A stretch of DNA of 64,000 bases from an uncultured Bacilli bacterium. GTDB lineage: Bacteria > Bacillota_I > Bacilli_A > RF39 > UBA660. The position numbers and the translations under genes are program-made. Under the pieces are notes generated by a model that had not been told where the DNA came from, did no database searches, and saw nothing but the letters and a program-made list of their open reading frames with translations. The stretch spans positions 741,444 to 805,443 of the forward strand of contig OZ006994.1 in the NCBI GenBank assembly GCA_963931305.1. The letters are read 5' to 3'. This document shows positions 18,671 through 50,796 of the stretch, in pieces; position 1 is the stretch's first letter; the number at the start of each line of letters is the position of its first letter.

Positions 18671-18805
18671 CTTATAACCGGACAGTTTTTGAAATGATAT
18701 TAAAATGACCCAGATGTTATCCTGAGTCATTTCACTCTTCAACTTGATATAAACAACCTTTTTTGTTATTCTTATTATAATCACAAAATAGAATAGAGGT
18801 TGTTT

Positions 18806-19975
18806 ATGTTTAAAGTATATAATACTCAAAATGATATTGCAAGTAGTTTGCAAAATTTTTTATTAAATGTTGATCCGAATATTAGAAAAACTCAACTTAA
18901 TATTATCCCTTTTATTTCTTTAGGTATGATTTTATCTGAATCTTCTGTCGCTAGTGATATCGCCAAATCTTTGAAAGATGAATTCTCTCTCGTTCAACAT
19001 GATTCTGTAATTCGTAGAATTAAAAGATTATTTAAAAATAAATTCTTTGATCCTTATCATTTTTATGACTTAGTGATTCGCTATGTTATTTCTAACTATA
19101 AACCGAAACATAATGACCGTCGTATTCATATTTCTTTTGATCATATGTTTTCTCACGACAATTATACTGTCTTTATGATCTCTATGAGAATCGGTAAACA
19201 AGGTATTCCTTTATGGTTTCGTTGTTTTAATAATAAATATCATTCCGATGCTTTCAACGAATCTCTCTTAAAAGAAGGTATCTCTTATGTCTCTTCCTTA
19301 TTTGATCCTTCTTTCCATCTTATTTTTCTTGCCGATCGTTGGTTTAATTCCACTTCTCTCTTACAGCATATTGATTCTTTAGGGCATATTTATTGTATTA
19401 GATTAAAAAGAAATATAAAAATTTTAGTTTATGACAAAAAGGAACAACACAAAGTCTGGAAATTTTTAAATGATATCATTCCTTATAAATATCATTCCAC
19501 TTCTTTTCATGACATCATCCTTACTGATTATCTATTTAAAACCAATATTGTCATCAGTAAATCTGATGGAGTATCTGATCCTTGGATCATTGTTACAAAT
19601 GGTTCTACTAAAAGAGCTATCAAAGATTATGGTTACCGTTTTGGTTCTATCGAATCTCTTTTTAAAAATCAAAAATCTAATTGTTTTTACATTGAATCTG
19701 TTATTAAAGCTGATTTAGACTATTTTACTTCTATGTATACTCTTGTTTGTTTTTCTACTCTCTTTTTAACCATATTAGGAGCTGATTATTCTAAAAACAA
19801 ATGTTGTTACAAAAATATTAAAATTACTACTCATAAATATTTTATTAAAAATGGTACCAGAGTTAAGAAAAGAGTTATGTCTTTATTTAATACTGGTCTT
19901 ACTTTATTTCATCTTGCCTTTCAATCCTCCCGTTATATTAGAATTCCTTTTTCTTTTACTCTTTATGATATTTAA
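18806..19975 (+). CDS. DDE transposase (DDE_Tnp_1 / IS4-like)
   Basis: The ATG at 18806 follows an AGAGG SD. Candidate DDE residues lie in ISFDHM, LADRWF and GYRFGSIESLFKNQK (a YREK-like block). Confidence 0.75.
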   Translation: MFKVYNTQNDIASSLQNFLLNVDPNIRKTQLNIIPFISLGMILSESSVASDIAKSLKDEFSLVQHDSVIRRIKRLFKNKFFDPYHFYDLVIRYVISNYKPKHNDRRIHISFDHMFSHDNYTVFMISMRIGKQGIPLWFRCFNNKYHSDAFNESLLKEGISYVSSLFDPSFHLIFLADRWFNSTSLLQHIDSLGHIYCIRLKRNIKILVYDKKEQHKVWKFLNDIIPYKYHSTSFHDIILTDYLFKTNIVISKSDGVSDPWIIVTNGSTKRAIKDYGYRFGSIESLFKNQKSNCFYIESVIKADLDYFTSMYTLVCFSTLFLTILGADYSKNKCCYKNIKITTHKYFIKNGTRVKKRVMSLFNTGLTLFHLAFQSSRYIRIPFSFTLYDI

Positions 19976-20157: not shown

Positions 20158-21624
20158 TCAGCCGATTATAAACGGATTCCCTTTCGTTCCATCTCCTCCT
20201 GTTATTTCGATATCTGATTTCAAATAGAGAACTGGACGCACCCCATTAAGGCCGCCAGTGTGCGCACGGTCGCCACCGAACCCGCCAACGCCCTGATCGA
20301 AAACCGCATACCAGACAAGGTACGAGCGGGCACCAGACTCCGCAGAAAACTCATTCATTGTCCAATAACTTATTTCTTCATTAAAAGTTGTTAAATATGA
20401 CCCACATGTTTCTCTTGGTGTATTTCCTCTTATTGCATTATATTCATCTGTTGCTGATGTACAGGCAATATTCGTACTTGCTCTCAGTAAATCACTGACA
20501 TTCACAAGTCCTACATTTCCTGTCCACTGGTACATCTTTTCTCCTGCGATATTCTTTTGGATACTATCATTTCCACTTACATCTAAGAACTGTACACTTC
20601 CGATATTAAATGCATGGCTTTGTACTTGTGTTTTTGCTGTTCCATCTAATGTTGGATAGTATGTATTATTTAGATATTCTTTGATACTGGAATCCTCTGT
20701 TACTGTTCCACTATACTTTCCATCTGGTGTTTGAAATGTTCCACTTACTGCTGCGAAGACTCCACAGCCTCTGCTTGGACTTGTACAATATGTATTATTT
20801 TCTGTTAAACGATGATTTGATACATCGTATGCCATAGGCGTATAATTAGCATTCTGTGGTAATATCTCATCTCTGATGATTTTATATGTTCCATCTGTTT
20901 CTTTAGCGATGATTCTCCATAATTCATTATTGAATTGAATGTAATTGTTTGGTTCGCTTCCACGATAGATATATCGTCCTGCTTCATATTGGTCTTCATA
21001 GAGTCCATCTCCAGAAGTAACTACTTCTACTCCTTGTCCTCCTATATCTACTCCATCACTTGGAAGTGGTCCTACTGGTACTCCATCATCACTTTGTTCA
21101 TATGTTAATGTGATTTCTATTTCTTTTTGCATGTTTGTTTCACTGAAATCTACATTCTCATCCCAATACACTTTTACTTGAAATGTTTTATCTTCTCCTG
21201 CAAGCAGTGGATCTCCTACCCTGATGTTTTCAACACTCACTTTAATTGCTTTTGGATCTTTATTATTGTTTTCACTTACTCCATCAATACCAGATAATAC
21301 TGCATCCAAGTCTCCTTGGTTTTCTACAACGACATCATATGTCGCACTTGCTCCTGGTTGTGTTAGATTGACATCTAATGTTAATGTTGTAAGATCTGTG
21401 ATTTCTTTTCTTGTTGTAGTCGCATTGTTCATTTCTTTTTCTTCTGCACTCGTAAACAATATTTTCCAATTAGATGTAATCTGGGCTGTTCCATTGATAT
21501 CTAATTGTTGACTTAATACTGCATATCCAATTCCTATCATTAGAAACATAGCAATACATAGACTACCAACTAGAAAATATTTCTTATGTTCTGAATTCAT
21601 TCTCTTTCTTTCTACTTTTCTCAT
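20158..21624 (-). CDS. Exported/anchored surface protein with a C-terminal DUF1566/lectin-like module that carries a compositionally aberrant segment
   Basis: AAGGAG SD precedes the ATG at 21624. It has an N-terminal basic region plus TM/signal segment. The central motif is GDGLYEDQYEAGRYIYRGSEPNNYIQFNNELWRII. The C-terminus reads YWTMNEF...VWYAVFDQGVGGFGGDRAHTGGLNGVRPVLYL. The present stop codon lies in the IS end. Confidence 0.6.
   Translation of the reverse strand: MRKVERKRMNSEHKKYFLVGSLCIAMFLMIGIGYAVLSQQLDINGTAQITSNWKILFTSAEEKEMNNATTTRKEITDLTTLTLDVNLTQPGASATYDVVVENQGDLDAVLSGIDGVSENNNKDPKAIKVSVENIRVGDPLLAGEDKTFQVKVYWDENVDFSETNMQKEIEITLTYEQSDDGVPVGPLPSDGVDIGGQGVEVVTSGDGLYEDQYEAGRYIYRGSEPNNYIQFNNELWRIIAKETDGTYKIIRDEILPQNANYTPMAYDVSNHRLTENNTYCTSPSRGCGVFAAVSGTFQTPDGKYSGTVTEDSSIKEYLNNTYYPTLDGTAKTQVQSHAFNIGSVQFLDVSGNDSIQKNIAGEKMYQWTGNVGLVNVSDLLRASTNIACTSATDEYNAIRGNTPRETCGSYLTTFNEEISYWTMNEFSAESGARSYLVWYAVFDQGVGGFGGDRAHTGGLNGVRPVLYLKSDIEITGGDGTKGNPFIIG
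20162..20170. repeat. Right copy of the 9-bp target-site duplication CCGATTATA
   Basis: See the feature at 18662-18670. This copy encodes the last residues (I-I-G) of the adjacent gene. Confidence 0.8.
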
Positions 21625-21728
21625 ATACTACTCCTTACCTTTCTTTCATCTTATCACAATTATTCGTTGATTTATATAGGTTTTCTAGGTGTTTTACACG
21701 ACATTTTTTTACTTTATTTGCTAAGTGC

Positions 21729-21763
21729 AAAAAAGTTGCTTCCACTACGAAAACAACTTTTTA
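21729..21763 (-). terminator. Intrinsic terminator inside the 5' leader of the surface-protein gene
   Basis: The minus-strand RNA reads GUUGUUUUC-GUAGU-GGAAGCAAC, a 9-bp stem that includes two G-U pairs, followed by UUUUUU. It lies about 105 nt upstream of the gene start. Confidence 0.6.
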
Positions 21764-21794
21764 AATCTTTTGAAATAAATTAAATCGTTAAAAT

Positions 21795-21929
21795 AGTATG
21801 AGAAATATAGGGTATGATTACTTAAATCCCCCCCCATGGTAGCGTTTGGTTAACACAAGCTTTATTTCTCATATCTATCACCTAGTCTCCTACTGTTTAC
21901 ATTTTATCACATTTTTTATAAATTTAAAA
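21795..21929 (-). promoter_or_regulatory. Conserved promoter plus leader element, copy A (the second copy is at 49125-49245)
   Basis: The -35 TTTTAA (21924-21929) and -10 TAAAAT (21901-21906) have 17-nt spacing. A conserved AGTAGGAGACTAGGTGA box follows, then a 16-codon sORF, a G8 tract, and an enclosing helix formed by 21863-21873 with 21797-21807. Confidence 0.55.
21822..21872 (-). CDS. Candidate leader sORF encoding MRNKACVNQTLPWGGI
   Basis: An AGGTGA SD lies 5 nt upstream of the ATG. The reading frame and the LPWGG C-terminus are shared with copy B despite synonymous differences (CTA/TTA). Confidence 0.4.
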   Translation of the reverse strand: MRNKACVNQTLPWGGI

Positions 21930-22076: not shown

Positions 22077-22292
22077 TTATTTTTGATTTATTTTATCTTC
22101 ATAAGCCTCGTAAAATATTGCATCTGGCTTTTTGTGAAATATTGCCGAAATCTTTACTGCCATTTCATAAGTTAGTCTTCTTTTCCCATTTTCAATTTGA
22201 CAGTAAAATGGTTTACTGATTCCAAGTTTTTCTGCCATGACACGAGCTGTTAATTTCTTTTTCTTTCTTAATTCTTTTAATTTTAGGTACAT
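22077..22292 (-). CDS. XRE-family helix-turn-helix transcriptional regulator (about 71 aa)
   Basis: The likely start is the ATG at 22292. The classic HTH_3 pattern is LKELRKKKKLTARVMAEKLGISKPFYCQIENGKR. Confidence 0.8.
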   Translation of the reverse strand: MYLKLKELRKKKKLTARVMAEKLGISKPFYCQIENGKRRLTYEMAVKISAIFHKKPDAIFYEAYEDKINQK

Positions 22293-22427
22293 ACTACTTC
22301 TCTCCCTTACAAGCTCATTATAACATATTTCACACAAAAAGTCTACTATTAGTGTACTGTAATTGTATGCTAATTATGAGAAAATTATCTTGTAGTACTT
22401 GGAAAATTTTACCATTTGGAGGATGTT

Positions 22428-22673
22428 ATGATGACAAATATGGATATGGTGAGTCAATATGCAGTATTTAGTAACAATATTCGTACTTACCGTAAAGAAA
22501 AAGGGTTTACGCAAGAAGTACTAGCTGAGAAATCTGAATTATCTATTTCTTATATTAAGCAAATTGAATCATGTAAGGAATATAAAAATTTGACATTGAC
22601 GGCAATTTTAAAATTGTCAAAAGCTTTGGATGTTCCTGTGAATCAGTTATTTTACGAAAAAAAGGAGAATTAA
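22428..22673 (+). CDS. XRE-family helix-turn-helix transcriptional regulator (about 81 aa), divergent from the previous one
   Basis: A GGAGG SD precedes the ATG at 22428. The HTH_3 pattern is IRTYRKEKGFTQEVLAEKSELSISYIKQIE. Confidence 0.8.
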   Translation: MMTNMDMVSQYAVFSNNIRTYRKEKGFTQEVLAEKSELSISYIKQIESCKEYKNLTLTAILKLSKALDVPVNQLFYEKKEN

Positions 22674-47755: not shown

Positions 47756-49051
47756 TTATTGAACGACTACTGCATATCTCATTAAATTATAAATTGATTC
47801 AAATTTCTGTTTTGAAATTAACTTTCTACCACTCCATGGATCTAATATAATATAATTTCCTGTAATACGATTATATCCAGTTAATAATACTACGTGTAAA
47901 TTTAAAGGAACTTCTCCATCCCATGTTGAAGGATAATTAAAATTAGATGTTGTATACACGACCACAGGTTTTCACTGGTTAATATATTCTTTTAATTGTT
48001 CTGGTGAGCTTCCTGAAATGTTCGTAGTTGTTGCATATTGAGAACCAAAACGGGCTAGTGCATCAGGGGCAATCCAATGGGTAACATTTTTCGGTTCTAA
48101 ATCAAAAATAGAATGAATAAAACCTTGATGTGGATCTGTATCATGTTTTGGCATTGCATTTGCAAACGATACAAGATTATGATTGGTTGCATATCCACGA
48201 TAATGAAGTGCCATTAACAAAGAGGCTGCTTCACAACCATTTAAGACTTGATTTGTTCTTTGATTTATAAATTCAATTCCTGTAATTTCCACATATGCTT
48301 CTTCTATTTTTCTTTGTTCTTCTTCCTTACGACGTTGTTCCGCTAAGGCAATTTGTCTTTGTCTTTCTCTTTCTTCCGCTGCTTTTCTTTCTGCTTCTTC
48401 TTCTTTTTTTGTCAAGTATTCACTTACTAATTGAAATTTTTCTTCATAATTTGATAAAATCCACATCTGTTTTAAATTCTTCATGAATTGATATACATCT
48501 TCATATTCTTTTTGATTTACACTTTCACGTACCTGAGATAATTTCTCATCTTGAAATAATCCTCTTAATTTGGAAATAGCTGTTTCTGTCTGTGTTAATT
48601 GTTCTAATCCTTGATTTAATTTGCCTATTAATAATGATTGTTCTACTTGCGATCTTTTTTCTAACTTTTTTTGATATTCTAGTAAATCTGTTTTCACAAT
48701 TTCTTTTTTGATGACGTCACCTTCAAAGAAATGATTTAATGTTTGTTGTAAATGATAAAATGATTTGATCTTTTGGAACTGTTTTTCTAATTGTTTCTTT
48801 TCTTTCCGATTTGTCATTTTTTCAATACATGTTTGTAATGCATCTAATTCTTTCTCAGTAATATCTAAACGTGGTGTTGTTTTTTCTTTGTCTTGATATA
48901 ATTGGCTTAACATTTTTTGAGCTTGACTCATCGTCTGTTCTTCTATTTTCTCTTTTTCTTTTTGATCTAATTGATTTGCATACCAATACCCTGCTCCGAT
49001 TCCTATCATTGCACAGCATAGTATGATTAAAATACATATTACTTTTTTCAT
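47756..49051 (-). pseudogene. YvpB-like C39-family (Peptidase_C39_2) cysteine peptidase with a TM anchor and coiled coil, interrupted by one in-frame TGA
   Basis: The tracked ORFs 47972-49072 and 47756-47965 are in the same frame, separated only by TGA (47972-47974) plus two codons. The catalytic Cys block (NGCEAASLLMALHY) is upstream of the stop. The His/Asp block (HVVLLTGY...ILDPW) is downstream. Confidence 0.65.
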
Positions 49052-49124
49052 ACTCCAATACTCCTTTATCATGTTCTGTTATACGATAAACGGATTGGAC
49101 TACGAATATGATATTGAATATAAT

Positions 49125-49245
49125 TATGAAAATAATTAGCTAAATACCCCCCCTCATGGTAACTGATAGCTAACAAATGAATCAAATTTCATATTTTCAC
49201 CTAGTTTCTACTATTAAGTATAACCAATTCTTTCAAACTTGAAAA
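49125..49245 (-). promoter_or_regulatory. Conserved promoter plus leader element, copy B
   Basis: The -35 TTTTCA (49240-49245) and -10 TATACT (49217-49222) have 17-nt spacing. An AGTAGAAACTAGGTGA box follows. The sORF ATG is at 49192, TGA (49154-49156) occupies the position of Trp in copy A, and there is a G7 tract. The enclosing helix pairs 49187-49193 with 49125-49131. Confidence 0.5.
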
Positions 49246-49301: not shown

Positions 49302-50796
49302 GGTTCTATAATAAATAGTGTTGGTGAGTAATTACTGACATTATTTTTAATTAATAAAAATGAGTCATATCAGAATCCTATGATACAATGTAATTGGTAA
49401 AACAAACATTGAAAGGATCTGATTAAATGACTCATACTGATTATACTAAAAAAATACTAAATATTAAAGATGAAAATATATATTTTTACGATAATTGTTT
49501 AGAAATTAAAAAAATCAATGGTGTTGATACCAAAATCTTTCATGCTTTTCTTACTTATACTCCTGACTTTTGTCCCCATTGCGGATGCGTGAATGGTGGC
49601 TTTCATGATATTATTAAATGGAATTTTAAAAGAAACTGTAAAATTAAAATTACGAAAGTTGCCAATTATAATACCATTCTACTTTTAGATAAACAAAGAT
49701 TCTTTTGTAAACATTGTAATAAAACCTTTACTGCTTCTACGAATGTAGTTGACTTTCACAAACAAATTTCTAATGATACAAGATTATCTGTTATTCTAGA
49801 TTTAATGCATAAAGGTTCTGAAAAAGATATCTCTATTAGAAATAATATTTCTACAAATTCTGTTAATAGGATTTTAGATGAAATTTCTAATGATACCATT
49901 GTTAAAAACAATGGATTATTACCAGAAGTATTAGGGATTGATGAATTTAGTGCTACAAAAGATACTATATCTAAATTAGCCTTTATTATTGTAGATCAAA
50001 CAAATAGAAATATTTTTGATATAAATCATAGTAGAAAGTCTTTAGATATTAATAAATACTTTAGAAATTATTCTAAAAAAGAACGAGATAAAGTTAAATT
50101 CATTACTTTAGATTTATATCAACCATATTATAAATTAATGCATTCTTTATTTAGAAATGCCATTTTAATTCCTGATAGATTTCATATTGTAATTCAAGCT
50201 AGAAATGCATTAGATAAAACAAGGATCAACTTATGTAAAAAATCCAATCCCAATTATAAAAAATTCAAAAAATACTGGAAATTACTTTTAAAAGATAAGC
50301 GTGATCTAGATAAAAAGAAGAAGAAATATCAAACATGTTTTAAAAAAGAAATGACGCAATATGATATTGTTTCTTACTTATTAAATACAAATGAGGAATT
50401 ATATGAAACTTACCAAATATATCAATCCCTTTTATATTCGATTGATACTAGGAATAAAGAAATATTCTTAAGTATTATTCGTTGTAAAAATAAAAAAATA
50501 TCTAATCATATGAGAAAAGCTCTTAAAACATTTAAGAACATGAGAAAATATATTTTAAATGCATTTGATTATGAATATTCTAATGGAATTGTGGAAGGAA
50601 CTAATAATTTAATTAAACAAATCAAACATACTGCTTATGGTTATAGAAAATTTAAACATTTAAAAGCTAGAGTTATGTTAATTAAAGGATTATATAATCC
50701 TATTAAAGCATAAGAAAAGAGAACTAAATTTAGTCCTCTTAACCAGTTCATTTATCATTCGTTTTTGGTTCCACCAACACTATTTGACATTGAACC
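49302..50796 (+). mobile_element. Intact ISL3-family insertion sequence (1495 bp)
   Basis: The 25-bp imperfect inverted repeats are GGTTCTATAATAAATAGTGTTGGTG and GGTTCAATGTCAAATAGTGTTGGTG (the second in reverse complement). They are flanked by the 8-bp direct repeat CTAATACC (49294-49301 and 50797-50804). Confidence 0.85.
49427..50713 (+). CDS. ISL3-family transposase
   Basis: It has the N-terminal zinc-finger pattern (CPHCG...CKHC) and a DDE_Tnp_ISL3 body (GIDEFS, LDLYQPY, DRFHIV, SNGIVEGTNNLIKQIK). Confidence 0.9.
   Translation: MTHTDYTKKILNIKDENIYFYDNCLEIKKINGVDTKIFHAFLTYTPDFCPHCGCVNGGFHDIIKWNFKRNCKIKITKVANYNTILLLDKQRFFCKHCNKTFTASTNVVDFHKQISNDTRLSVILDLMHKGSEKDISIRNNISTNSVNRILDEISNDTIVKNNGLLPEVLGIDEFSATKDTISKLAFIIVDQTNRNIFDINHSRKSLDINKYFRNYSKKERDKVKFITLDLYQPYYKLMHSLFRNAILIPDRFHIVIQARNALDKTRINLCKKSNPNYKKFKKYWKLLLKDKRDLDKKKKKYQTCFKKEMTQYDIVSYLLNTNEELYETYQIYQSLLYSIDTRNKEIFLSIIRCKNKKISNHMRKALKTFKNMRKYILNAFDYEYSNGIVEGTNNLIKQIKHTAYGYRKFKHLKARVMLIKGLYNPIKA

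What the first reader, a model, noticed from the sequence alone, without database searches (positions are those of the whole stretch)
21795..21929. Conserved promoter, leader and 16-codon sORF element shared by two unrelated exported-protein genes (candidate novel cis-regulatory leader)
The regions upstream of the surface-protein gene (copy A, 21795-21929) and the C39-like peptidase gene (copy B, 49125-49245) align over about 120 nt on the minus strand. The downstream genes themselves are unrelated.

The shared parts, in order, are:
- CCTTTT(A/C)A as the -35, then 17 nt, then TA(A/T)A(A/C)T as the -10
- AGTAG(G)A(G/A)ACTAGGTGA, which contains a strong SD
- an ATG at identical spacing
- 12 codons, then CCA TG(G/A) GGG GGG
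- a stop soon after in each copy
- a segment that pairs back onto the ATG region

Copy A encodes MRNKACVNQTLPWGGI. Copy B encodes MKFDSFVSYQLP(stop)GGVFS. The reading frame, V7 and the LP(W)GG motif are conserved, and the Leu codon differs synonymously (CTA/TTA). This argues for selection at the peptide level.

An enclosing helix also shows a compensated indel. In A it is TATGAGAAATA/TATTTCTCATA and in B it is TATGAAA/TTTCATA, so GA is lost in one arm and TC in the other. This argues for RNA structure.

In copy A the element is followed by an intrinsic terminator (21729-21763), about 105 nt before the gene start. That is the layout of a transcription attenuator.

The G8/G7 homopolymer inside the sORF is striking in such an AT-rich genome. 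It could also give slipped-strand phase variation of leader translation. I do not recognise this element as any known riboswitch or leader.
Basis: partly seen in the sequence, partly recalled or inferred. Interest (0 to 1): 0.75.

Follow-up and report, generated by a model that had tools for sequence, protein, structure and literature searches.

The report
Poly-G phase-variable leader-ORF transcription attenuator
A run of G's inside a tiny upstream reading frame probably works as a random on/off switch for a family of exported proteins in uncultured human-gut bacteria, by deciding whether ribosomes run into and disable a transcription terminator; this mechanism has so far been shown experimentally only for Streptococcus gallolyticus pili.

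Summary
Copy A (21929-21795, minus strand) and copy B (49245-49125, minus strand) are homologous. Each has a promoter, a strong ribosome-binding site, a small ORF (sORF) ending in ...LPWGG, and a poly-G tract. These are the only G/C runs of 6 or more in the 64 kb window.

About 25 further copies from gut metagenome-assembled genomes (submitted as Mycoplasmatota, Tenericutes, Acholeplasmataceae or Bacilli) show what the element is.
- The tract varies from G7 to G11, including between otherwise near-identical loci.
- Two reading frames stop 1-6 codons after the tract.
- The third frame stays open for 41-67 codons and ends in the loop of the conserved terminator (21762-21729) or beyond it.

This layout matches the S. 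gallolyticus pil1/pil3 switch (PMC3894217), where repeat slippage in a leader ORF sets whether translation overrides a premature terminator. Here the repeat is a homopolymer and the sequence and host are unrelated.

Copy A (G8) is in the OFF frame; G9 would be ON. Copy B is a decayed relative: TGG has become TGA before the tract, it has no terminator, and its gene carries a premature stop.

One segment downstream of the tract pairs with both the sORF start and the main gene's start, which hints at a second, translational lock.

The mechanism is inferred from sequence only. Verdict: a new variant of a known kind, of moderate interest.

The parts
21901..21928 (-). Leader promoter of copy A. The extended -10 is TGaTAAAAT (21909-21901), with a weak -35-like TTTAAA (21928-21923).
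   Evidence: The promoter scan is. The TG-n-TAAAAT element is conserved in all type-A copies, whereas the -35 region is not. The same promoter plus SD module drives an ordinary 71-aa gene in L009 and L015.
21878..21886 (-). ACTAGGTGA, containing the Shine-Dalgarno sequence AGGTGA of the leader ORF.
   Evidence: This string matches exactly only at the two copies. It is invariant in 15 aligned leaders.
21822..21872 (-). Leader ORF as it stands in this window (G8, the OFF frame): MRNKACVNQTLPWGGI, ending at TAA.
   Evidence: Sequence and frame analysis. One more G gives a 42-aa ORF.
21828..21835 (-). Poly-G tract (G8) at codons 13-15 of the leader ORF; the inferred slipped-strand switch.
   Evidence: It is one of only two G/C runs of 6 or more in 64 kb. 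The tract ranges from G7 to G11 in homologous leaders. In near-identical locus pairs it is the only indel, or nearly the only one: L012/L024, L003/L004, L008/L018, L016/L017.
21745..21827 (-). ON-frame extension. This frame is open from the tract to a TAG (21747-21745) in the terminator loop. The leader ORF reads it only when the tract is G9, G6 or G12.
   Evidence: In all 15 distinct leaders one frame stays open to the terminator loop or beyond, and the other two stop 0-17 nt after the tract. The peptide itself is not conserved.
21863..21879 (-). Helix P1, 5' arm. It covers the end of the SD, the start codon and codons 2-4 of the leader ORF.
   Evidence: MFE fold. Pair counts: 93% paired, with compensatory UA to GC in L022.
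21792..21807 (-). Helix P1, 3' arm, called the 'anti-start' here (UAUUUCUCAUACUAUU). It lies in the ON frame and is also complementary to the main gene's SD and start region (21635-21611).
   Evidence: for P1. In the RNAduplex comparison, the main-gene TIR ranks 1 of 61 TIRs (-18.5 kcal/mol) and the sORF TIR ranks 2 (-16.6 kcal/mol); the median is -8.1. For 7 of 10 type-A leaders, at most 4% of shuffled leaders pair as well with the main TIR.
21729..21762 (-). Intrinsic terminator (attenuator): AAAAAGUUGUUUUC-GUAGU-GGAAGCAACUUUUUU.
   Evidence: It folds at -13.5 kcal/mol with z -4.3. It is 97.6% paired with two compensatory pairs across leader types. Equivalent hairpins of -13.6 to -18.1 kcal/mol occur in the L014, L016 and L022 types.
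21648..21656 (-). Second extended -10-like element, TGaTAAGAT, 24 nt upstream of the main start codon. It may be a tract-independent promoter (a caveat for the model).
   Evidence: Read. It is conserved in most type-A copies but absent in the L016 type. Its function was not tested.
20158..21624 (-). Regulated gene: a 488-aa exported protein with an N-terminal TM helix and a beta-sandwich domain. It belongs to a multi-copy paralog family.
   Evidence: More than 1200 homologs were found, with several paralogs per roughly 1.25 Mb genome. There are only weak matches to DUF6273 and choice-of-anchor D. Neighbouring genes in other loci are Tad-pilus or type IV pilin-like.
49217..49245 (-). Promoter-like site of copy B (TTTTCA, 17 nt, TATACT).
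   Evidence: It aligns with the copy A promoter region.
49154..49192 (-). Copy B leader ORF, MKFDSFVSYQLP, ending at TGA just before the tract.
   Evidence: At this codon ortholog L006 has TGG (a 44-aa ORF, G8), L035 has TAG and L028 has TAA. TGA is a stop codon in this genome: 11 of 59 ORFs end in TGA.
49147..49153 (-). Copy B G7 tract. It now lies outside the truncated leader ORF.
47972..49072 (-). C39-like peptidase gene downstream of copy B. It is cut short by a premature TGA at 47974-47972, where orthologs have Arg.
   Evidence: Pfam matches. Orthologs are 425-432 aa and sit next to mutL in the same order.

Best explanation
The element is a phase-variable, translation-dependent transcription attenuator.

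1. An extended -10 promoter starts a leader RNA.
2. Its first feature is a well-translated small ORF carrying a poly-G tract at codons 13-15.
3. Slipped-strand mispairing during replication changes the tract length and so the reading frame after it.
4. In two frames the ribosome stops 1-6 codons after the tract, about 55-65 nt before the terminator. The hairpin forms and most transcripts end there (OFF).
5. In the third frame the ribosome continues through the 'anti-start' segment. It reaches a stop codon in the loop of the terminator or beyond it. This physically prevents hairpin formation, so RNA polymerase reads on into the exported-protein gene (ON).
6. The anti-start segment can pair with the leader ORF's own start (helix P1) or with the main gene's SD and start. 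ON-frame translation may therefore also unmask the main gene's ribosome-binding site.

**Shown from sequence:**
- tract-length polymorphism between loci;
- the frame architecture;
- the conserved terminator and helix P1;
- the complementarity of the anti-start segment to both start regions.

**Inferred, not shown:**
- that the tract changes by slippage within a lineage;
- that translation overrides the terminator;
- the ON/OFF effect on expression;
- any translational lock.

In this window copy A is OFF (G8; ON needs G9). Copy B is a decayed, non-switching relative.
For: **The tract is exceptional and varies in length**
- It is one of the only two G/C runs of 6 or more in 64 kb.
- All G>=7 runs in 243.5 kb lie in this context.
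- Tract lengths of 7, 8, 9, 10 and 11 occur among 24 alleles.
- L012 vs L024: 809 aligned columns, 5 mismatches, and the only gap is in the tract.
- L008 vs L018: the only 2 gap columns are in the tract.
- L003 vs L004: 810 columns, 0 mismatches, 1 G difference.

**Frame architecture**
- In all 15 distinct leaders two frames stop 0-17 nt after the tract.
- The third frame stays open to 1 nt into the terminator loop or beyond.
- This includes leader types whose post-tract sequence cannot be aligned with copy A (L016, L022).
- It also includes variants with internal 1-nt indels (L008, L018, L020).
- Both states are seen in the assemblies: 6 of 24 alleles are ON. One metagenome-assembled genome has two ON and two OFF loci.

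**Structures**
- The terminator folds at -13.5 to -18.1 kcal/mol with z of -4.3 or lower, and has compensatory changes.
- Helix P1 is conserved with compensatory changes.

**Anti-start segment**
- It pairs best with the main gene's own translation initiation region (rank 1 of 61) and with the sORF's (rank 2).

**Precedent**
- The same logic has been shown experimentally for S. gallolyticus pil1/pil3 (PMC3894217). There, short leader peptides stop 28 nt or more before the hairpin (low expression). Long ones stop within or after it (high expression).

**Biological setting**
- The regulated genes are a multi-copy exported-protein family that lies next to pilus genes in a host-associated bacterium. 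This is the usual setting for phase variation.
Against: - There are no expression data. Translation-dependent antitermination is inferred.
- An open frame of this length is not rare by chance in this T-rich sequence: P(at least one open frame) is 0.32-0.55 per leader. Stop avoidance over 33 substitution events is only marginal (p about 0.06).
- An extended -10-like element (21656-21648) sits 24 nt before the main start. If active, it would give expression independent of the tract.
- C39-type leaders (copy B, L006, L035, L028, L034) have no intrinsic terminator. Three of them end the sORF before the tract, yet GTTACC-(G-rich)-TATTTA remains conserved. The terminator model therefore does not explain everything.
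- Some of the tract differences come from long-read or low-coverage assemblies (L002, L004, L018, L020), where homopolymer length errors are common.
- Tight ribosome-polymerase coupling is not universal in Firmicutes.
Confidence: 0.62

Rival explanations
1. The switch is purely translational. The tract-dependent frame decides whether ribosomes melt the anti-start segment that masks the main gene's SD and start. The terminator would be only a leaky boundary and not the regulated step.
For: - The anti-start segment pairs best with the main gene's own translation initiation region: -18.5 kcal/mol, rank 1 of 61.
- For 7 of 10 type-A leaders, at most 4% of shuffled leaders pair as well with the main TIR.
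- In L016 the CCCAUUUCUCAU motif lies after the terminator, 45 nt before the main start, and still inside the ON frame.
- C39-type leaders lack a terminator. In L034 and L006 a U-rich part of the ON frame is predicted to pair with the main start codon region (z about -3).
Against: - In type-A leaders the anti-start is about 170 nt from the main start and is more likely to pair locally with the sORF start (P1).
- The terminator is strictly conserved, with compensatory changes and a U run. The ON frame always reaches it.
- The sORF and main start regions resemble each other, so the double complementarity could simply reflect a shared origin.
- Copy B shows no specific pairing.
Confidence: 0.12
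2. The promoter, sORF and terminator form an independent small gene. Its product is a phase-variable peptide of 16 or about 42 aa, with LPWGG as the functional motif. It merely travels with the paralog genes, which use their own proximal promoter.
For: - LPWGG is invariant in more than 25 copies, including a C39 leader from a species whose C39 protein is only 51% identical.
- The unit has its own strong SD and its own terminator.
- An extended -10-like element lies just upstream of the main gene.
Against: - Residues 4-10 vary freely.
- The long extension differs completely between leader types. Its substitutions are not concentrated at third codon positions (12, 14 and 7 events at positions 1, 2 and 3).
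- No leader was found that is not followed by a gene or a gene remnant.
- In L016 the ON frame runs through the terminator to the main gene's SD.
Confidence: 0.08
3. The conserved GUUACCAUG-G(n)-UAUUUA is an RNA-level or DNA-level recognition element. It could be the target of a small RNA or protein whose effect depends on G-repeat length, as with RepG and tlpB in H. pylori. It could also be a site of transcriptional slippage or ribosomal frameshifting. Under this view the ORF frames are secondary.
For: - Nucleotide conservation of the core exceeds that of the flanking leader and of the proteins.
- The core persists in C39 leaders even where the sORF stops before the tract.
- Regulation that depends on G-repeat length through an sRNA is known in H. 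pylori (abstract of PMC8295292).
Against: - No Rfam family matches.
- No C/U-rich partner was noticed in the window.
- The one-open-frame-to-terminator rule, and the stops that immediately follow in the other two frames, are not needed under this model.
- The interruptions in copy B, L035 and L028 look like decay by G-to-A changes.
Confidence: 0.1
4. The element is an inert duplicated fragment. The leader is conserved only because the paralogs are young or are homogenised by gene conversion. The tract differences are assembly errors.
For: - Leader identity (88% mean column identity) is similar to that of the paralog proteins (76-89%).
- Some loci come from long-read or roughly 2x-coverage assemblies.
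- The open frame is only weakly significant on its own.
Against: - Poly-G of 7 or more occurs nowhere else in 243.5 kb of 29% GC sequence.
- Differences of 2 nt (7 vs 9) occur between near-identical loci; the G7 state recurs in two records (L008, L023), and each pair includes at least one binned genome assembly.
- The terminator and P1 carry compensatory changes.
- The architecture recurs with unrelated post-tract sequence (L016, L022) and upstream of an unrelated gene in a distant species (L034).
Confidence: 0.08

Closest known systems
Streptococcus gallolyticus pil1/pil3 phase-variable leader-peptide attenuator (Danne et al. 2014, PMC3894217)
   Same: [quoted passage not shown]
- A premature stem-loop terminator lies between the leader ORF and the structural genes.
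- Short peptides stop well upstream of the hairpin, giving low expression.
- Frame-shifted long peptides stop within or after it, giving high expression.
- The regulated products are surface structures of a gut-associated Gram-positive-type bacterium.
   Different: - The repeat is a G7-G11 homopolymer rather than 13-23 GCAGA units.
- There is no sequence similarity and the host lineage is unrelated.
- Only one of three frames is long.
- There is an extra helix between the leader start and a post-tract segment that also matches the main gene's start.
- The element is multi-copy: it precedes many paralogs and, in variant form, an unrelated peptidase gene.
- The mechanism here is inferred rather than demonstrated.
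Ribosome-coupled attenuators such as E. coli pyrBI and pyrE (own knowledge)
   Same: Translation of a leader ORF that extends into or through the terminator hairpin suppresses termination when the ribosome follows the polymerase closely.
   Different: - In those systems the input is nucleotide-dependent polymerase pausing, not a heritable frame change.
- They have no repeat tract and no stochastic ON/OFF inheritance.
Helicobacter pylori tlpB leader G-repeat targeted by the sRNA RepG (abstract of PMC8295292; own knowledge)
   Same: A variable poly-G tract in an mRNA leader sets the expression of a downstream gene.
   Different: - There the tract lies in an untranslated leader and works through base pairing with a C/U-rich sRNA.
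- Here the tract lies inside a translated sORF whose frames are arranged around a terminator, and no partner RNA was found.
Clostridioides difficile cwpV and flgB switches (own knowledge; flgB is listed in PMC12360218)
   Same: Phase variation acts after transcription initiation, through premature termination in the leader of surface-structure genes.
   Different: - Switching there is by site-specific DNA inversion rather than repeat slippage.
- No leader-ORF translation is involved, and flgB termination depends on Rho.

Membership tests
SSR-in-leader-ORF attenuator (S. gallolyticus pil1/pil3 type) | A hypermutable simple repeat lies inside a translated leader ORF upstream of the structural gene. 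| tested here: met
   - The G tract sits at codons 13-15 of an sORF with a strong SD.
- Tract length ranges from 7 to 11.
- It differs between near-identical loci.
SSR-in-leader-ORF attenuator (S. gallolyticus pil1/pil3 type) | A stem-loop terminator lies between the leader ORF and the structural gene. | tested here: met
   - Copy A has one at 21762-21729, -13.5 kcal/mol plus a U run.
- It is conserved with compensatory pairs.
- The feature is not met for copy B and the other C39-type leaders.
SSR-in-leader-ORF attenuator (S. gallolyticus pil1/pil3 type) | Frame-dependent stop positions: short peptides end well upstream of the hairpin, and long ones end within or downstream of it. | tested here: met
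   - This holds in 15 of 15 distinct leaders.
- The OFF-frame stops lie 0-17 nt after the tract, which is 41 nt (L022) to 68 nt before the 5' arm.
- The ON-frame stop lies in the loop or beyond.
SSR-in-leader-ORF attenuator (S. gallolyticus pil1/pil3 type) | Read-through depends on leader translation, and the population shows heterogeneous ON/OFF expression. | not testable with these tools
   This needs reporter fusions, Term-seq or single-cell expression data. Only the mix of ON and OFF alleles among assemblies was seen (6 of 24 ON).
SSR-in-leader-ORF attenuator (S. gallolyticus pil1/pil3 type) | Sequence homology to the pil1 leader (GCAGA repeats). | tested here: not met
   The repeat is a G homopolymer, and no GCAGA array is present in the leader. 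The element is therefore an analogue of pil1, not a homologue.
Any curated RNA family (riboswitch, leader or sRNA) in Rfam 15 | A covariance-model match at or near the gathering score. | tested here: not met
   There was no hit at gathering thresholds in the window. At E<=10 around both copies only chance-level matches to miRNA, snoRNA and sRNA models appeared.
Amino-acid-sensing leader-peptide attenuators (trp, his, leu type) | A run of regulatory codons for one amino acid, plus mutually exclusive antiterminator and terminator hairpins. | tested here: not met
   - The leader peptides contain no codon run.
- The MFE folds show P1 and the terminator as separate helices.
- No alternative pairing overlaps the terminator's 5' arm.
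- The alternative-pairing check was not exhaustive.
Promoter-spacer SSR phase variation (for example Bordetella fim, Mycoplasma vlp; own knowledge) | The repeat lies between the -35 and -10 elements, or immediately upstream of the promoter. | tested here: not met
   The tract begins 66 nt downstream of the -10 element (about 60 nt past the predicted transcription start), inside the sORF.
Intragenic SSR phase variation of the structural gene (for example Neisseria or Campylobacter poly-G; own knowledge) | The repeat lies inside the coding sequence of the regulated protein. | tested here: not met
   The tract lies about 200 nt upstream of the 488-aa gene's start. The gene itself has no G/C run of 6 or more.
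RepG/tlpB-type sRNA-targeted G-repeat | A G-repeat in an untranslated leader, together with a C/U-rich sRNA partner. | tested here: inconclusive
   The tract is translated in most copies. No C/U-rich intergenic candidate was noticed in the window, but the rest of the genome is not available.

The most novel reading that the evidence does not exclude
The leader is a two-lock stochastic switch. A single 'anti-start' segment toggles between the leader ORF's start and the structural gene's start. The poly-G frame would then control both premature termination and translation initiation of the gene. The promoter-sORF-tract module would be a portable cassette, recruited to unrelated genes (the paralog family and the C39-like peptidase) across species, with LPWGG or its codons as a required part of the device, for example as a ribosome-pacing or slippage-prone site.
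Probability: 0.2. Interest if true: 0.65.

Novelty: new variant of a known kind. Interest (0 to 1): 0.5.

Why it matters
In the papers searched here, phase variation through a repeat inside a leader ORF coupled to a terminator was documented for only one organism, S. gallolyticus. Finding the same logic built independently would show that the design is a recurrent solution rather than a curiosity. The independent features are:
- a homopolymer repeat instead of a pentanucleotide repeat;
- an uncultured human-gut lineage with a small genome;
- many copies, one in front of each member of an exported-protein family.

It also gives a simple sequence signature for finding such switches in metagenomes: a strong SD, a short ORF, a G/C tract, one long frame and a terminator. 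These would otherwise be annotated as intergenic DNA.

The signature predicts which surface proteins of these uncultured bacteria vary from cell to cell. Tract length read from metagenomic reads would serve as a direct readout of ON/OFF state in vivo.

Tried and rejected
- **Rfam.** Searches at gathering and permissive thresholds found nothing relevant.
- **Genetic code 4.** I asked whether TGA might encode Trp, which would make copy B read LPWGG. This is rejected.
  - 11 of 59 ORFs end in TGA.
  - The in-frame TGA in the C39 gene replaces an Arg codon of the orthologs.
- **Chance of an open frame.** Shuffling shows that at least one open frame of this length arises in 32-55% of shuffles. Openness alone is weak evidence. 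A stop-avoidance test over 33 substitution events gave p of about 0.06.
- **Selection on the long leader peptide.** None was seen. Substitutions are not enriched at third codon positions, and the sequence differs between leader types.
- **Structure of the 488-aa protein.** The AlphaFold2 model was unusable (mean pLDDT 37), so no fold search was run. PDB and NCBIfam gave nothing significant.
- **More distant family members.** Four loci (L036-L039) for two more distant family members (P0325, P0393), found by searching with P0171 (49% identical to the window protein), have no G tract and no such leader. The element is restricted to this clade, and these loci gave no further independent leader types.
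- **C39 orthologs.** Several lack the leader entirely (L025-27, L030-32, L033).
- **Partner for the G tract.** No C/U-rich candidate was noticed in the window.
- **Literature.** Searches for poly-G leader-ORF attenuation or for this bacterial clade returned only the S. gallolyticus precedent.
- **Covariance model.** I did not build one.
Full report

Yes.
- On the minus strand, 21929-21795 (copy A) and 49245-49125 (copy B) align over the promoter region, AGTAG(G)ARACTAGGTGA, an ATG at the same spacing, 11 codons, and then CCATG(G/A)GGGGGG.
- ACTAGGTGA and TACCATGRGGGGG each match exactly only at these two places.
- A profile of copy-A-type leaders finds copy B with E=1.3e-12.
- The window is 28.9% GC. 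Its only G/C runs of 6 or more are these two tracts: G8 at 21835-21828 and G7 at 49153-49147.
- No Rfam family matches.

The two downstream genes are unrelated.
- Copy A precedes a 488-aa exported protein with only weak DUF6273 and choice-of-anchor D matches.
- Copy B precedes a C39-like peptidase with a MapZ-like domain.

**2. Related copies**

The 488-aa protein belongs to a large paralog family, with several members per roughly 1.25 Mb genome.
- Two paralog loci in different genomic contexts (L001 after tex, L003 after rpe) carry the same roughly 590-nt upstream region as copy A. Their tract is G9.
- A pattern scan (ACTAGGTGA..ATG..CCATGRGGGGG) found 11 loci in five gut metagenome-assembled genomes. 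Their submitters named them Mycoplasmatota, Tenericutes, Acholeplasmataceae or Bacilli.
- The same scan found 8 more loci in human-gut metagenomes.
- Orthologs of the C39 gene, which lie next to mutL in the same order, supplied further C39-type leaders.
- In 243.5 kb of window plus fetched loci, every G run of 7 or more lies in this leader context.

**3. Anatomy that the extra copies reveal**

(a) The tract length is 7, 8, 9, 10 or 11. Loci that are otherwise almost identical differ there.

| Pair | Aligned columns | Mismatches | Gaps |
|---|---|---|---|
| L012 (G9) vs L024 (G8) | 809 | 5 | only gap is in the tract |
| L008 (G7) vs L018 (G9) | 208 | 4 | both gap columns are in the tract |
| L003 (G9) vs L004 (G10) | 810 | 0 | one, in the tract |
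| L016 (G9) vs L017 (G7) | 544 | 10 | 2 of 16 gap columns are in the tract |

Some of these contigs come from long-read or low-coverage assemblies, where homopolymer errors occur. The 2-nt differences, and the recurrence of G7 in two records (L008, L023), argue that the variation is real.

(b) The frame layout is the same in all 15 distinct leaders that include the terminator.
- Two of the three frames after the tract stop within 0-17 nt.
- The third frame stays open to a stop 1 nt into the terminator loop (most copies, 41-43 aa) or beyond the hairpin (52-67 aa in L008/L018/L020, L014 and L016).
- The rule holds for leader types whose post-tract sequence cannot be aligned with copy A (L016, L022).
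- It also holds for variants with internal 1-nt indels.

(c) The terminator is conserved.
- It folds at -13.5 to -18.1 kcal/mol, with z of -4.3 or lower.
- It carries two compensatory base-pair changes.

- It pairs the end of the SD, the start codon and codons 2-4 (21879-21863) with 21807-21792.
- It is 93% paired across the 15 leaders.
- It carries compensatory changes, for example UA to GC in L022.

(e) Both states occur among the assemblies. Six of 24 alleles are in the long frame. One genome (SI.T10 bin 87) has two long and two short loci.

In this window copy A (G8) encodes the 16-aa form. One more G gives a 42-aa ORF ending at TAG 21747-21745.

**4. Mechanism**

The layout is that of a translation-dependent attenuator whose input is a heritable frame change.
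- In the two short frames the ribosome is released about 55-65 nt before the hairpin, and the terminator forms.
- In the long frame the ribosome reaches the hairpin and should prevent it from forming. Transcription then continues into the gene.

This mechanism has been demonstrated for the S. gallolyticus pil1 and pil3 pilus operons (PMC3894217).
- GCAGA repeats change the leader-peptide frame.
- Peptides that stop 28 nt or more upstream of the hairpin give low expression.
- Peptides that stop within or after the hairpin give high expression.
- Mutating the ATG, adding stop codons or deleting the terminator behave as the model predicts.

I therefore read the element as a functional analogue of pil1, not a homologue. 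It uses a homopolymer instead of a pentanucleotide repeat.

Tract polymorphism, frame architecture and conserved structures are shown by sequence. Slippage as the cause, the ribosome's effect on termination, and the expression outcome are all inferred.

**5. A possible second layer**

The 3' arm of P1 lies in the long frame. It is complementary not only to the sORF start but also to the main gene's SD and start region.
- Among 61 translation initiation regions in the window, it pairs best with the main gene's own (-18.5 kcal/mol) and second best with the sORF's (-16.6). The median is -8.1.
- For 7 of 10 type-A leaders, at most 4% of shuffled leaders pair as well with the main TIR.
- In L016 the corresponding CCCAUUUCUCAU motif sits after the terminator, 45 nt before the main start, and is still inside the long frame.
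- In C39-type leaders without a terminator (L034, L006), a U-rich part of the long frame is predicted to pair with the main start codon region.

Long-frame translation could therefore also unmask the gene's ribosome-binding site. The sORF and main start regions resemble each other, possibly because the leader arose by duplicating the gene's 5' end. The double complementarity may therefore be historical, and I treat this layer as a hypothesis.

**6. Copy B**

Copy B belongs to a diverged C39-type branch of the same leader family.

| Locus | Relation to the window's C39 protein | Codon after LP | Tract | Leader ORF |
|---|---|---|---|---|
| L006 | ortholog | TGG | G8 | 44 aa |
| L035 | 88% identical | TAG | G7 | stops before tract |
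| Copy B | window | TGA | G7 | stops before tract |
| L028 | 64% identical | TAA | none | stops |
| L034 | 51% identical | TGG | GGGAGGGGGG (KLPWEGGI*) | one more G opens a frame that ends 12 nt before the SD |

Several orthologs have no leader at all.

- TGA is a stop codon in this genome.
- The window's C39 gene has a premature TGA at 47974-47972 where orthologs encode Arg. Its closest relatives are also truncated.
- An ISL3 element (49302-50796) lies just upstream.

Copy B is best read as a decayed, non-switching relic.

The persistence of GTTACC-(G-rich)-TATTTA in these leaders, even where the ORF stops before the tract, is not explained by the terminator model. This keeps an RNA- or DNA-level role for the core motif open.

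**7. Caveats**

- An open frame of this length is not rare by chance in this T-rich sequence (32-55% of shuffles). Stop avoidance is only marginal (p about 0.06). The case rests on the whole architecture recurring, not on any single statistic.
- The long peptide shows no sign of selection as a protein.
- An extended -10-like TGaTAAGAT (21656-21648) lies 24 nt before the main start and is conserved in most type-A copies. If active, it would give tract-independent expression.
The conserved element is the extended -10, and the same promoter plus SD module drives an ordinary 71-aa gene in L009 and L015.
- More distant family members (L036-L039, retrieved via a protein 49% identical to the window's) have no such leader. 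The device is confined to this clade.

**8. What is regulated**

The 488-aa proteins have an N-terminal TM helix and a beta-sandwich domain. That is the only confidently modelled part; the full AlphaFold2 model failed (pLDDT 37). They form a large, variable family. In other loci they sit next to Tad-like or type IV pilin-like genes. A variable, multi-copy family of exported proteins in a host-associated bacterium with a small genome is the typical substrate for phase variation.

**9. Verdict**

- The interpretation as an attenuator with possible slipped-strand switching is largely right. Three points need correcting: the 16-codon peptide is only one state, copy B is degenerate, and the mechanism has a published precedent.
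- Novelty: a new variant of a known kind.
- Confidence in the main mechanism is about 0.6.
- Interest is moderate (0.5). This would be a second, independently evolved instance of a rarely documented switch. It is easy to recognise in metagenomes and directly testable.

Noticed in passing
window 22053-21960 (- strand); also L001 2440-2530, L003 2435-2525, and upstream of the leaders in L013, L016, L017 and L021: A near-consensus promoter (TTTACA, 17 nt, TATAAT) is followed by a roughly 65-nt two-hairpin RNA that ends in a terminator hairpin (21984-21965) plus a U run (fold z -3.5 to -4.7). This conserved module sits just upstream of many paralog leaders and is a candidate small RNA.
   Followed up: partly
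L003 2516-2644 (- strand) and the equivalent region of L001; absent from the window between 21960 and 21950: L001 and L003 carry about 140 extra nt between the small-RNA module and the leader promoter. On the opposite strand of L003 (the L001 frame was not checked) this encodes a 30-42 aa peptide with a hydrophobic tail (…MRYERKLIKQLIHLMWFLLILLFLIIIKNT). Its 3' end overlaps the small RNA's terminator. This looks like a type I toxin with an antisense-RNA antitoxin. In the window the toxin part is deleted.
   Followed up: partly
window 47972-47974 (within 47775-49072, - strand): The C39-like peptidase gene has an in-frame TGA where orthologs have Arg, and the frame continues for 65 more codons. 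The closest database relatives (98% identical) are also truncated. The gene is probably decaying in this lineage.
   Followed up: yes
window 49302-50796: An ISL3-family insertion sequence (transposase 49427-50713, plus strand) with 25-nt terminal inverted repeats at 49302-49326 and 50772-50796. It is inserted between the upstream operon and the terminator hairpin (49287-49266) that precedes copy B.
   Followed up: partly
window 18800-19975 (+ strand): An ORF with a weak DDE_Tnp_1 transposase match lies immediately downstream of, and convergent with, the 488-aa gene. L003-L005 have a 389-aa ORF with no Pfam hit on record (similarity to the window ORF not checked) in the same place, so it may travel with the paralog cassette.
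   Followed up: no
L012 2131-2380 (-) and L024 1465-1714 (+): A remnant locus. A complete leader (promoter, sORF, tract and the 5' arm of the terminator) is fused directly to the last roughly 20 codons of a paralog gene (…ITGGNGTKSNPYVIA*). This implies a deletion between the terminator and the gene's 3' end. The tract still differs between the two samples (G9 vs G8).
   Followed up: partly
L009 5959-5744 (-) and L015 from 3383 (+): The same extended -10 promoter and SD (TGTTAAA.TG.AAACAGTA..AGACTAGGTGA) drive an ordinary 71-aa gene (MQKLEFVLVRKNGHNNETLIDSYVE…, no Pfam hit). It lies 0.4-1 kb upstream of a leader-controlled paralog. The promoter plus SD module is therefore reused independently of the sORF and tract.
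   Followed up: partly
window 22077-22337 (-) and 22416-22673 (+): Two small divergent XRE/Cro-type HTH genes (86 and 85 aa) lie immediately upstream of copy A's region. This resembles a repressor/antirepressor or antitoxin pair. They are not present upstream of the paralog leaders in L001 or L003.
   Followed up: no
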